DNA of 21,669 bases, taken from IMG/VR virus record IMGVR_UViG_2529293061_000008, one strand, 5' to 3'. Source of the DNA: a virus (lineage: Duplodnaviria; Heunggongvirae; Uroviricota; Caudoviricetes). The translations under genes were made by a program, and so were the position numbers. The notes under the pieces were generated by a model. The model was given only the letters and a program-made list of their open reading frames with translations, made no database searches and was not told where the DNA came from. Within the stretch, counting starts at the first letter, position 1. Each line of letters starts with the position of its first letter. This document shows, in pieces, positions 7,511 to 9,162 of the stretch.

Positions 7511-8425
7511 ATGCCATACCAATTGGTAGAGCTTAGCCCCGTAGCTAACGATCTTGAACAGTTAGGAACCAAAGAGAAGTTTTGGTTCTATTTCTCCGAT
7601 GACACTGTAAATTTGCAGTTGTTTAAGTACTCTAGGCCAGGTACTGGCGAGCATTGGTCTGAAAAGTGTGCTGCTGAGTTATGTCATTTGCTTAACATTC
7701 CACATGCTAGCTATGATTTGGCGCGATACAATGGTCGATTCGGTGTGGTGACTCAGAATATCATTCCATCTGGTTTCCGGATGGTAATGGGAAATGAAGT
7801 GCTTCACAGTTCGACATTCGATTATCCTGGGCCTTTACAAGCCGGGGAAAAGCCGGTAAGGGTCAGAGAACACACTGTCACAAGGGTCTTGGGTTGTTTA
7901 GATAGGGAATCTATCAAGCCTCCTCCGAGTGTATATGATCTAACCGGGCTAAATGCAGCAGATGTATTTTGTGGATATTTGATGCTCGATGCACTTGTGA
8001 GTAATCAAGATCGCCACCATGAAAATTGGGCAATCATGCTTAACAATGAAACTGGTGAGCAGTTTTTGTGTCCAACATACGATCATGCCGCTAGTTTAGG
8101 AAGGGAGATGTTAGATGATGAGCGTAACGAACGGCTTAATACTAAAGATAAAAATCGACAAATCCCATGTTTTGTAAGAAAAGCTCGCTCTGAGCTATTC
8201 AAAGCAAAAACTGATAAAAAGCCCTTGCTGACTGTTGAAGCATTTCAACATGCAGTTGAAGGGAGAGTTGCCGCTCGCGACCATTGGTTAGGTAAGTTGA
8301 GCGTTTTAACAGAAGATTCCATTACAGATGTGTTTAACCAAGTGCCTTCATCGTGTATATCCGACAGTGCACGTAGATTTGCAACGTTAATGGTAATGGA
8401 AAATCGCAGAAGGTTACTAGAATGA
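7511..8425 (+). CDS. HipA-family Ser/Thr kinase core domain (HipT-like, lacks HipA N-terminal domain)
   Basis: 304 aa; GTKEKF at aa 19-24 (P-loop-like); SNQDRHHENWAIM at aa 164-176 fits the HipA catalytic loop NxDxHxxN (D167, H169, N172); PTYDHAAS (D191) fits the Mg-binding motif. Confidence 0.7.
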   Translation: MPYQLVELSPVANDLEQLGTKEKFWFYFSDDTVNLQLFKYSRPGTGEHWSEKCAAELCHLLNIPHASYDLARYNGRFGVVTQNIIPSGFRMVMGNEVLHSSTFDYPGPLQAGEKPVRVREHTVTRVLGCLDRESIKPPPSVYDLTGLNAADVFCGYLMLDALVSNQDRHHENWAIMLNNETGEQFLCPTYDHAASLGREMLDDERNERLNTKDKNRQIPCFVRKARSELFKAKTDKKPLLTVEAFQHAVEGRVAARDHWLGKLSVLTEDSITDVFNQVPSSCISDSARRFATLMVMENRRRLLE

Positions 8426-9162
8426 CTAATACAAACTCCGTTTACGTCGCATGGCAGGCACCAGATACCAGAGACTGGCATGTTGTTGGTAACTTGCAAG
8501 AGCGCAAATCGGGGTATGTTTTCAGGTATACCAAAGGTGCTCTTAAATCTTCTAAATTTACAAAGTTTAGCGGCATGAGTGATGTTCGTGAAACTTATGT
8601 ATCGGAAGAATTGTTTCCTCTTTTTAAAAATCGCCTTTTATCACCGAGACGTCCAGAGTATCCGAGTTTCATTAAATGGCTTGGATTTGAAGAAGATAAG
8701 GTAAATCCTATCGATATTCTTGCTCGCTCGGGAGGCTTACGAAGCACTGATCAGCTGCAGATTTTCAAAAAAATTGATTTTGATTCTGATGGTAACTTTG
8801 AGCATTTTTTCTTCTTACATGGACTTGGTTACTTGAATAGCTTAGCTAATGCTCGTGTATCTGAATTGAAACCGGGGCAAATTTTGCGTCTTTGCTTGGA
8901 TCTTCAAAATGAATACGATGGGGATGCTGTTGTCGTTCGTGCAGATAAACCAGCTGAAATCGTTGGTTACTGCCCTAGGTATTTAAGTAATGACATCAAG
9001 AAGATGTTATTGGATGATCCAAAATCAATCACTTTAACGGTCGAAAAGATTAGCGATGATGCTCCTCATAACTATCGGTTATTATGTAAATTATCAGGGG
9101 TACTAAGCCAAGCCTGTCAATCGACGCTGATTCCTCAAGATGAGTTTGAACCTATTGAGTAA
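8422..9162 (+). CDS. HipS-like (HipA N-subdomain-like) domain fused to a HIRAN-like domain
   Basis: ATG overlaps kinase stop (ATGA). N-terminal ~115 aa with ELFPLFKNRLLSP and NPIDILARSGGLRS resembles the HipA N-terminal/HipS motifs. C-terminal LKPGQILRLCLDLQNEYDGDAVVVRADKPAEIVGYCPRYLS resembles the HIRAN core. Confidence 0.6.
   Translation: MTNTNSVYVAWQAPDTRDWHVVGNLQERKSGYVFRYTKGALKSSKFTKFSGMSDVRETYVSEELFPLFKNRLLSPRRPEYPSFIKWLGFEEDKVNPIDILARSGGLRSTDQLQIFKKIDFDSDGNFEHFFFLHGLGYLNSLANARVSELKPGQILRLCLDLQNEYDGDAVVVRADKPAEIVGYCPRYLSNDIKKMLLDDPKSITLTVEKISDDAPHNYRLLCKLSGVLSQACQSTLIPQDEFEPIE

What the first reader, a model, noticed from the sequence alone, without database searches (positions are those of the whole stretch)
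7511..9162. Cargo pair between cos and the portal gene: HipA-like kinase plus a HipS-like/HIRAN fusion
ORF1 (304 aa) carries HipA-kinase motifs (GTKEKF; catalytic loop SNQDRHHENWAIM with D167/H169/N172; PTYDHAAS with D191) but no HipA N-terminal domain. ORF2 overlaps it by ATGA and joins a HipS-like N-terminal region to a C-terminal HIRAN-like domain (HIRAN domains are known to bind DNA 3' ends). The order is the reverse of canonical HipA and of hipB-hipS-hipT, and there is no HipB-like HTH gene. The pair is low-GC, has its own AT-rich upstream region and a bidirectional terminator, and sits in the A-to-Q interval where P2 carries old and tin. My hypothesis is a toxin-antitoxin or abortive-infection module in which the kinase is held in check by the HipS-like domain and the HIRAN domain couples release to free DNA ends.
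Basis: partly seen in the sequence, partly recalled or inferred. Interest (0 to 1): 0.9.

Follow-up and report, generated by a model that had tools for sequence, protein, structure and literature searches.

The report
HipA-like kinase plus HipS-HIRAN prophage cargo
A P2/186-like prophage carries, next to its DNA-packaging site, a two-gene module (a small HipA-family kinase and a partner that joins a HipS-like inhibitor domain to a DNA-end-binding HIRAN domain); the genes are real and the domain calls are right, but the module is already catalogued (hipIN; PADLOC candidate PDC-M03) and its presumed anti-phage role is still untested.

Summary
The pair is low-GC cargo between a cos site (about 7340) and the portal gene, and it ends in a strong bidirectional hairpin.

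Sequence profiles alone are marginal for the kinase and the HipS-like region, but fold searches settle the domain calls. The ORF1 model matches CtkA, HipA and HipT kinases. The ORF2 model matches HipS and the HipA N-subdomain in its N-terminal half, and HIRAN domains in its C-terminal half.

None of this is new:
- Gerdes et al. 2021 defined this architecture as hipIN and proposed the same DNA-end-triggered abortive-infection idea.
- PADLOC lists it as candidate system PDC-M03 (E 2e-122 and 7e-93).
- RefSeq names the proteins HipA-domain and HIRAN-domain proteins.
- The two accessions RefSeq gives this pair appear in Rousset et al. 2022's table of P2 hotspot loci.

The pair travels as a unit on unrelated mobile elements. 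I found no experimental test of it. A distantly related fused version in the same hotspot showed no defence on an eight-phage panel.

Verdict: a real, correctly read module of an already known kind, with its function still inferred. Interest is modest.

The parts
7308..7364 (.). cos region. The cohesive end is inferred to start at 7340 (GGCGTGGCGGGGATACGAG). This is the left boundary of the cargo slot.
   Evidence: The phage SEN8 and EtG records end at window 7339, and Cartapus annotates the homologous 57 nt as its cos site. Backbone homology to other P2-like phages stops at about 7364-7373.
7365..7510 (+). AT-rich leader (32% GC) holding a sigma-70-like promoter candidate at 7401-7429 (TGGACA-17-TATCAT).
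   Evidence: The promoter is only a consensus match, not shown to function.
7511..8425 (+). ORF1: HipI-type HipA-family Ser/Thr kinase core, 304 aa. Features: Gly-rich loop G19-F24 with T20; catalytic loop D167/H169/N172; Mg-binding D191.
   Evidence: PADLOC PDC-M03A at E 2e-122. AF2 model with pLDDT 83.6. Foldseek hits to CtkA (E 1.3e-9, TM 0.67/0.74), HipA and HipT. Family profile against PDB finds CtkA at E 2e-4. Motif residues are invariant in homologues.
8422..8766 (+). ORF2 residues 1-115: HipS-like domain (equivalent to HipA N-subdomain-1), the presumed kinase-neutralising part.
   Evidence: Foldseek hits to HipS 7ab3_E (E 2.1e-3, prob 1.00, TMt 0.70) and to HipA 3dnt_A / 3tpd. Pfam Couple_hipA at E 0.014, below threshold. 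hhalign against HipA residues 11-65 is in the right register but weak.
8800..9105 (+). ORF2 residues 127-228: HIRAN domain. N163 and D166 are invariant; Y165 is the majority residue.
   Evidence: Pfam HIRAN at E 1e-13, 51.3 bits, above the 24.7 cut-off. Foldseek hits to HLTF HIRAN 4xzg / 4s0n and to lp_0118 3k2y, TMt 0.60-0.77. Conservation. The alignment to 3k2y shows the N-x-Y-D and G-Y-x-x-R-Y motifs.
9166..9195 (.). Bidirectional intrinsic-terminator-like hairpin shared by ORF2 and the convergent portal gene. This is the right boundary of the cargo.
   Evidence: Perfect 13-nt inverted repeat. Folds at -21.0 and -20.4 kcal/mol, z about -6.6 and -6.8, on the two strands.
9197..10237 (-). Portal gene (gpQ-like), the conserved flank of the hotspot.
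   Evidence: annotation of the identical locus.
4126..6549 (+). Replication endonuclease gene (gpA-like), the conserved flank on the other side of the hotspot.
   Evidence: annotation of the homologous loci.

Best explanation
This is a hipIN-type two-gene module (PADLOC candidate PDC-M03) carried as accessory cargo in the cos-proximal defence hotspot of a 186/P2-like prophage.

Shown here:
- ORF1 is a HipA-fold kinase core with intact Gly-rich, catalytic and Mg-binding motifs.
- ORF2 joins a HipS-like domain to a HIRAN domain.
- The two genes are translationally coupled.
- They always travel together, on unrelated mobile elements.

Inferred by analogy with HipBST:
- The HipS-like domain of ORF2 docks on ORF1 where N-subdomain-1 sits in HipA. 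In HipBST, HipS blocks the HipT Gly-rich loop in this way.
- This would keep the kinase inactive in the lysogen.

Inferred further, and more speculative:
- The HIRAN domain binds free 3' DNA ends that appear during infection by another phage.
- That binding changes or removes the inhibition.
- The freed kinase phosphorylates an essential host factor. In HipA and HipT that factor is an aminoacyl-tRNA synthetase.
- Growth stops and the infection aborts, which protects the lysogen population and the prophage.
For: Identity:
- PADLOC PDC-M03A and PDC-M03B at E 2e-122 and 7e-93.
- Fold matches to CtkA, HipA and HipT for ORF1, and to HipS, HipA N-terminus and HIRAN for ORF2.
- HIRAN is above the Pfam threshold.
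- Catalytic residues and T20 are invariant.
- Size and architecture match the published definition of hipIN.

Coupling:
- ATGA overlap in the window, and overlaps of 4-17 nt in every other locus sampled.
- Those loci are V. cholerae, a non-P2 E. coli island, an Ectopseudomonas integrative element, the Microbulbifer chromosome and Vibrio Vinavirales prophage-like elements.
- No third gene is conserved.
- A fused kinase-HipS-like protein exists in the same P2 hotspot and aligns collinearly, though weakly, with ORF1 followed by ORF2.

Defence context:
- The gpA-gpQ/cos locus is an experimentally established hotspot of anti-phage systems.
- The slot is variable: another phage carries a different gene there.
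- The backbone is in 2470 of 5426 E. coli genomes, while the pair is in 21.
- Composition is foreign to the phage.
- HipS inhibits HipT by inserting Trp65 at the Gly-rich loop.
- A different HipA-family kinase system, DS-6/HipAD, has been validated as anti-phage and depends on its kinase activity.
Against: - No experiment on this family was found. Gerdes et al. list none for clade XI, and a 2025 paper still calls the HipA-HIRAN function uninvestigated.
- A distantly related fused system from the same hotspot (pFR108, 'Exonuclease + HipA') was not among the three P2 systems that gave defence against eight phages.
- Sequence-level similarity to HipA and HipS is marginal.
- The closest solved structure is CtkA, which is not a toxin-antitoxin toxin.
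- The ORF1-ORF2 contact, the equivalent of HipS Trp65, DNA-end binding and the kinase target were not tested here and could not be.
Confidence: 0.55

Rival explanations
1. It is a plain addiction (post-segregational killing) toxin-antitoxin module. It stabilises the prophage or simply persists selfishly, and has no phage-sensing role. The HIRAN domain replaces HipB's HTH as the DNA-binding part, either for autoregulation or to tether the complex to DNA.
For: - The architecture is TA-like, and there is no separate HTH regulator.
- In HipBA, the DNA-binding antitoxin both neutralises the toxin and represses the operon.
- The pair also sits alone in chromosomal sites with no defence neighbours.
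- The related system pFR108 gave no defence.
Against: - HIRAN domains studied so far bind DNA ends regardless of sequence, not operators (Gerdes et al. summary). That makes a poor promoter-specific repressor.
- The pair recurs as cargo of temperate phages from two different viral realms, and in an established defence hotspot.
Confidence: 0.17
2. ORF2 is an adaptor or activator rather than an antitoxin. HIRAN recruits the kinase to DNA ends, where it phosphorylates DNA-associated phage or host proteins (replication, recombination or packaging factors) rather than a tRNA synthetase. Defence is then direct interference, not abortive infection.
For: - In full-length HipA the equivalent N-subdomain-1 is an integral part of an active kinase, not an inhibitor.
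- The best structural match, CtkA, is not a TA toxin.
- The fold is shared with PI3K-like kinases, including the DNA-damage kinase ATM.
- In some lineages the pair is associated with DEDD exonucleases or diDNases that act on DNA ends.
Against: - In HipBST, the only split system studied, HipS is the inhibitor.
- No target data exist.
- The exonuclease partner is absent from this locus.
Confidence: 0.15
3. It serves the P2-like phage's own life cycle, for example by acting on its cos ends or modulating host physiology during induction, rather than acting against other phages.
For: It lies immediately next to cos, at the extreme end of the packaged genome. cos cleavage creates recessed 3' ends, which is general knowledge about 5'-overhang cohesive ends.
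Against: - Only 21 of the 2470 E. coli genomes with this backbone carry the pair, so it is dispensable for the phage.
- The same pair occurs in non-phage chromosomal sites and in unrelated elements without cos.
Confidence: 0.03

Closest known systems
hipIN modules (HipI kinase + HipN), clade XI of the Hip kinase tree; Gerdes, Baerentsen & Brodersen 2021, mBio (PMC8262856)
   Same: - A short core kinase of 279-321 aa lacking N-subdomain-1, with the Gly-rich loop near the N terminus and a Ser/Thr beside it.
[quoted passage not shown]
- No HipB.
- The same proposed mechanism: HIRAN senses phage DNA ends and kinase activation causes abortive infection.
   Different: - No difference in architecture.
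- Their set held only 14 hipIN modules and did not mention a prophage or P2 context.
- Phylogenetic placement of ORF1 inside the HipI subclade was not tested here, because the reference accessions were not retrievable.
PADLOC phage defence candidate PDC-M03 (A: HipA-domain protein; B: HIRAN-domain protein)
   Same: Both proteins match the PDC-M03 models almost end to end (E 2e-122 and 7e-93), and the genes are adjacent. Published genome surveys describe PDC-M03 as HipA-domain plus HIRAN-domain proteins.
   Different: PDC-M03 is an unpublished, unvalidated candidate. It says nothing about function.
HipBST of E. coli O127:H6 (HipB, HipS, HipT)
   Same: HipA is split into a small N-subdomain-1-like protein (HipS) and a core kinase (HipT). 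The ORF2 N-terminal domain matches HipS by fold and ORF1 matches HipT by fold. HipS is the antitoxin and blocks the Gly-rich loop.
   Different: - Gene order is kinase first.
- There is no HipB.
- The HipS-like domain is fused to HIRAN.
- Sequence similarity is marginal.
- The equivalent of HipS Trp65 was not identified.
- The target (TrpS for HipT) is unknown here.
HipL kinases (fused kinase-HipS-HIRAN), including the second protein of pFR108 'Exonuclease + HipA' from a P2 hotspot (Rousset et al. 2022)
   Same: The same three domains and the same P2 hotspot, with collinear weak similarity to ORF1 followed by ORF2.
   Different: - One polypeptide rather than two.
- Accompanied by a DEDD-type exonuclease.
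- Only about 37% identity, over the catalytic loop.
- Not among the systems that gave defence.
HipAD / DS-6 (Brenes & Laub 2025; DefensePredictor 2026)
   Same: A HipA-family kinase with a non-HipB partner, shown to protect against phage in a way that depends on kinase activity.
   Different: The partner has DUF3037 and DUF1829, not HipS-HIRAN. The primary paper was not available to me.
P2 old and tin, and other cargo of the gpA-gpQ/cos hotspot
   Same: The same variable locus of P2-like prophages, which is rich in validated anti-phage systems.
   Different: The proteins are unrelated. Here the cargo lies on the portal side of cos, whereas in the P2-type loci cloned by Rousset it lies on the gpA side.

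Membership tests
hipIN (HipI + HipN; Gerdes 2021) | Short core kinase (279-321 aa) lacking HipA N-subdomain-1, with the Gly-rich loop close to the N terminus | tested here: met
   ORF1 is 304 aa with GTKEKF at residues 19-24. Its fold aligns with CtkA and HipT over the whole length, and with the core of HipA only (TMt about 0.4 against the 415-aa HipA).
hipIN (HipI + HipN; Gerdes 2021) | Conserved catalytic and Mg-binding motifs of Hip kinases | tested here: met
   D167, H169, N172 and D191 are invariant in 34 homologues. They align in register with the HipA motifs DGHAKN and YD, although that alignment is statistically weak (E 0.031). The activation-loop motif was not examined separately.
hipIN (HipI + HipN; Gerdes 2021) | Ser or Thr next to the Gly-rich loop (a possible autophosphorylation site) | tested here: met
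   T20 is invariant. Phosphorylation itself cannot be tested here.
hipIN (HipI + HipN; Gerdes 2021) | [quoted passage not shown] | tested here: met
   Pfam HIRAN at E 1e-13 and Couple_hipA at E 0.014. Foldseek hits to HIRAN structures and to HipS 7ab3_E, prob 1.00.
hipIN (HipI + HipN; Gerdes 2021) | Phylogenetic placement of the kinase in a HipI subclade of main clade XI | not tested
   The reference accessions from Table S1 were not retrievable from the held supplements.
PADLOC PDC-M03 | Adjacent genes matching the PDC-M03A and PDC-M03B models | tested here: met
   E 2.1e-122 (residues 2-304) and 6.8e-93 (residues 1-244).
HipBST | A three-gene operon, hipB-hipS-hipT, with an HTH HipB and a stand-alone HipS | tested here: not met
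   Only two genes are present, kinase first. No HTH ORF fits in the 146-nt leader or elsewhere in the cargo, and the HipS-like domain is fused to HIRAN.
Canonical HipBA | A kinase of about 440 aa with N-subdomain-1 fused, preceded by hipB | tested here: not met
   ORF1 is 304 aa without the N-subdomain, and there is no hipB.
HIRAN domain (PF08797) | Profile match above the curated threshold, and the HIRAN fold | tested here: met
   51.3 bits against a 24.7 cut-off. TMt 0.60-0.77 to HLTF HIRAN and lp_0118.
HIRAN domain (PF08797) | Binding of 3'-OH DNA ends | not testable with these tools
   N163 and D166 are invariant, Y165 is the majority residue, and the N-x-Y-D motif aligns with that of lp_0118. 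Equating these residues with the HLTF 3'-end pocket rests on my memory of HLTF, not on a test.
Type II toxin-antitoxin system | The toxin is toxic alone and is neutralised by direct binding of the cognate antitoxin | not testable with these tools
   Only indirect support: strict co-occurrence with overlapping genes and a natural fusion.
P2 gpA-gpQ / cos defence hotspot cargo (Rousset 2022; Vassallo 2022 hotspot 1) | A variable insert between the replication endonuclease and portal genes, next to cos | tested here: met
   Flanks. cos. A different gene occupies the same slot in vB_EcoM-813R9. The backbone is in 2470 genomes and the pair in 21. The pair's RefSeq accessions are listed in Table S5.
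Validated anti-phage defence system | Reduced phage plating or growth when the system is present | not testable with these tools
   No published test of this family was found. The distant relative pFR108 was not among the validated systems.
HipAD / DS-6 | Partner protein with DUF3037 and DUF1829 | tested here: not met
   ORF2 has HIRAN and a HipS-like domain only.

The most novel reading that the evidence does not exclude
The pair is a sequence-independent sensor of free 3' DNA ends wired to a PI3K-fold kinase. HIRAN binding of phage DNA ends would relieve HipS-type inhibition and switch on the kinase. That would be a bacterial counterpart, in logic, of DNA-end-activated PI3K-like kinases such as ATM or DNA-PK, and it would be carried by prophages from two viral realms. 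The E. coli P2-borne copy would be the tractable model in which to show it.
Probability: 0.22. Interest if true: 0.75.

Novelty: already known. Interest (0 to 1): 0.3.

Why it matters
If the published hypothesis holds, this would be a defence system whose trigger is a generic feature of invading DNA (free 3' ends) rather than a specific phage protein, and whose effector is a kinase. That pairing would broaden the known ways in which bacteria sense infection. This E. coli prophage copy has a native promoter region, a clean two-gene cassette and defined boundaries, so it is a convenient construct for the first experimental test. As a discovery it adds nothing: the architecture, the hypothesis, the hotspot and these proteins' accessions are already in the literature and databases.

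Tried and rejected
Searches and scans that gave little or nothing:
- Single-sequence and profile searches of PDB sequences gave only CtkA (E 0.43, then 2e-4) for ORF1. For ORF2 they gave only a marginal HIRAN hit and no HipS.
- hhalign of the family profiles against E. coli K-12 HipA found the right regions but with E 0.03 and 0.08 and probability below 2%. It cannot stand alone.
- NCBIfam gave nothing useful, and PHROGs gave only 'unknown function' families.
- The exact P2 cohesive-end 19-mer, as I recalled it, was not found within 3 mismatches. cos was located instead from the termini of related phage records.
- The simple terminator scan missed the ORF2/portal hairpin. It was found by the inverted-repeat search and by folding.
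- Megablast of the pair against deposited phage genomes found nothing. tblastn found only distant copies.

Literature that did not help:
- No follow-up work appears under the names HipI, HipN, HipL or hipIN.
- Millman 2022, Payne 2024 and the 2026 P2/P4 hotspot preprint do not mention this system.
- Brenes & Laub 2025 could not be read.
- The Gerdes supplements as held did not yield HipI accessions.

Readings considered and rejected:
- That it is HipBST or canonical HipBA: the membership tests fail.
- That it is HipAD/DS-6: the partner domains differ.
- That the antisense open frames inside the cargo are genes: they have no support.
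Full report
**What is in the sequence**

Two co-directional ORFs occupy 7511..8425 (304 aa) and 8422..9162 (246 aa) and overlap in ATGA. These residues, and T20 in the Gly-rich loop, are invariant in an alignment of 34 homologues reaching down to 57% identity.

The pair has a GC content of 0.413 against 0.533 for the rest of the window. 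Its GC3 is 0.37 and 0.33, against 0.57-0.70 for the flanking phage genes. It is preceded by a 146-nt leader of 32% GC that holds one promoter-like site at 7401-7429. It is followed by a perfect 13-nt inverted repeat at 9166-9195. That repeat folds at about -21 kcal/mol on either strand, z about -6.6 and -6.8, and lies between ORF2 and the convergent portal gene. No further plausible gene, and in particular no HTH gene, fits in the cargo.

**Where it sits**

The flanks are a gpA-like replication endonuclease (4126..6549) and, on the minus strand, a gpQ-like portal gene (9197..10237) and a gpP-like terminase gene. The early region is of the 186 type: a CI fragment, CII, Fil, TraR/DksA and Dam.

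The cos call holds. The deposited genomes of Salmonella phage SEN8 and Erwinia phage EtG end exactly at the base homologous to window 7339. Phage Cartapus annotates the stretch homologous to 7308-7364 as its cos site. The cohesive end therefore begins at 7340.

Homology to other P2-like phages stops at about 7364-7373 and resumes at the portal gene. In phage vB_EcoM-813R9 the same slot holds a different single gene. The backbone is found in 2470 of 5426 complete E. coli genomes. The pair is found in 21, at 99% identity or more. All 15 listed records show a portal gene at the end of the match.

This is the cos-proximal gpA-gpQ hotspot that Rousset et al. 2022 and Vassallo et al. 2022 showed to be rich in anti-phage systems. 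One difference from P2 itself: in the P2-type loci that Rousset cloned, cos lies next to Q and the cargo is on the gpA side of cos. Here the cargo is on the portal side.

**What the proteins are**

Sequence profiles alone are marginal for two of the three domains:
- Pfam HipA_C: 20.7 bits, cut-off 30.5.
- Pfam Couple_hipA: 16.3 bits, cut-off 22.5.
- Pfam HIRAN: passes clearly at 51.3 bits, cut-off 24.7.
- A family profile of ORF1 finds only the H. pylori HipA-like kinase CtkA among solved structures, at E 2e-4.
- Profile comparison with E. coli K-12 HipA aligns the correct regions but without statistical weight.

Structure prediction settles the matter. The ORF1 model (pLDDT 83.6, pTM 0.85) matches, in this order:
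- CtkA, at E 1.3e-9 with TM 0.67/0.74.
- E. coli and Shewanella HipA.
- Legionella HipT.
- The wider PI3K-like fold, more weakly.

The ORF2 model (pLDDT 87.7) matches HIRAN domains of HLTF and of lp_0118 with its C-terminal half (TMt 0.60-0.77). Its N-terminal half matches HipS of E. coli HipBST (7ab3_E, prob 1.00, TMt 0.70) and the N terminus of HipA.

**It is a unit**

In every other locus I sampled, the kinase gene is followed by an overlapping HipS-HIRAN gene (overlaps of 4 to 17 nt), and nothing else is conserved around it. The loci are:
- V. cholerae chromosome.
- An E. coli island outside P2.
- An integrase-bearing element of Ectopseudomonas.
- The Microbulbifer chromosome.
- 14-kb Vinavirales (non-tailed) prophage-like elements of Vibrio cyclitrophicus, where the pair sits next to the integrase.

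A fused kinase-HipS-like protein from a P2 hotspot (Rousset's pFR108) aligns collinearly, but weakly, with ORF1 followed by ORF2.

**What is already known**

- Gerdes, Baerentsen and Brodersen (2021) defined exactly this architecture as hipIN: a short HipI kinase lacking N-subdomain-1, followed by HipN, which is a HipS-like domain plus HIRAN. They proposed that the HIRAN domain recognises the DNA ends of invading phages and thereby activates the kinase to cause abortive infection. They noted that nothing in this clade had been tested.
- PADLOC holds the pair as candidate PDC-M03, and both proteins match it at E 2e-122 and 7e-93. [quoted passage not shown]
- RefSeq names the two proteins accordingly.
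- RefSeq gives the pair the accessions WP_001146828 and WP_000185756 in a genome whose DNA matches window 7400-9200 at 100%. Those accessions appear in Rousset's Table S5 of P2 hotspot loci, and a Vibrio prophage hotspot entry there is labelled 'HIRAN-kinase'.
- A 2025 study of diDNases notes HipA-HIRAN (HipI-type) clusters next to those nucleases and says that the link remains to be investigated.

On the experimental side:
- A HipA-family kinase system with a different partner (DS-6/HipAD; DUF3037/DUF1829) has been validated as anti-phage. I could not read its primary paper.
- The fused relative pFR108 was cloned but was not among the three P2 systems that protected against an eight-phage panel.

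**How it most likely works**

Shown: a kinase core with intact catalytic machinery, and a partner made of a HipS-fold domain and a HIRAN-fold domain. The two are translationally coupled and inherited together.

Inferred from HipBST: there, HipS inserts Trp65 beside the Gly-rich loop and locks HipT in an inactive state. By analogy, the ORF2 N-terminal domain holds ORF1 inactive.

Inferred from the known end-binding of HIRAN domains (as summarised) and from the defence-hotspot context: free 3' ends of infecting or replicating phage DNA engage HIRAN and release the kinase. The kinase then blocks an essential process; for HipA and HipT that process is charging of tRNA.

I put the identity of the module above 0.9. 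I put the full chain, through to an anti-phage outcome, at about 0.55, and the DNA-end trigger specifically at about 0.2-0.3.

The rivals are:
- A plain addiction module in which HIRAN stands in for HipB's DNA binding.
- An adaptor model, in which HIRAN recruits an active kinase to DNA ends to hit DNA-associated targets.
- A role in the phage's own cycle. This is unlikely, because the pair is rare among phages with this backbone and also occurs outside phages.

**Verdict**

All of it has been described before, so I rate it as already known, with modest interest. The interest rests on the fact that the family's function is still untested, and this E. coli cassette would be a convenient test case.

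Noticed in passing
L001 8024-8554 (minus strand), compared with window about 7136-7339: E. coli CFSAN061772 carries the identical pair, but also an extra hypothetical gene (531 nt, about 176 aa) between the DinI-like gene and cos. So both sides of cos can hold cargo in one prophage. Rousset's Table S5 likewise lists the pair together with Mrr_cat or DarT/Macro genes in the same hotspot.
   Followed up: partly
L002 4296-5447: Phage vB_EcoM-813R9 has a 'Hypoth_Ymh domain' gene of about 383 aa in exactly the cos-to-portal slot that the kinase/HIRAN pair occupies in the window. I did not examine its function.
   Followed up: no
L012 2935-4649: Prophage-like elements of Vibrio cyclitrophicus, about 14 kb and classified in Vinavirales (non-tailed, Tectiliviricetes), carry a 37%-identical kinase plus a HIRAN gene next to their integrase. 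The same module therefore rides on phages of a different viral realm.
   Followed up: partly
L005-L007 5001-6663; L007 6701-8107: A 71%-identical variant of the pair (P0036) lies in E. coli outside P2. It sits beside a two-partner-secretion/haemolysin-like locus (TPS, ShlB, HlyC) and, in one genome, next to an AEP-type primase gene, which may indicate a satellite or island.
   Followed up: no
NZ_CP042893.1 (hit H1): This genome holds two separate copies of the pair ('places_in_record' 2; highest per genome 2), presumably in two P2-like prophages.
   Followed up: no
Rousset 2022 Tables S2 and S5; PMC11706625: Some relatives come with a DEDD-type exonuclease or diDNase (DUF5051 + HipA_C + HIRAN; 'Exonuclease + HipA'; actinobacterial diDNase clusters). 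No such gene is present in this window.
   Followed up: partly
window 3347-4177 (+): A 276-aa ORF between the Dam methylase gene and gene A. Its counterpart in the homologous prophage is annotated only as hypothetical.
   Followed up: no
window 6601-7135 (+): Two overlapping ORFs lie downstream of gene A. The second (6830-7135) contains the DinI-like protein annotated in the homologous loci, and its true start is probably internal.
   Followed up: no
window 8245-8499 (-): An 84-aa antisense ORF spans the ORF1/ORF2 junction, inside a longer stop-free frame of 130 codons. It is most likely a by-product of the AT-rich coding sequence.
   Followed up: no
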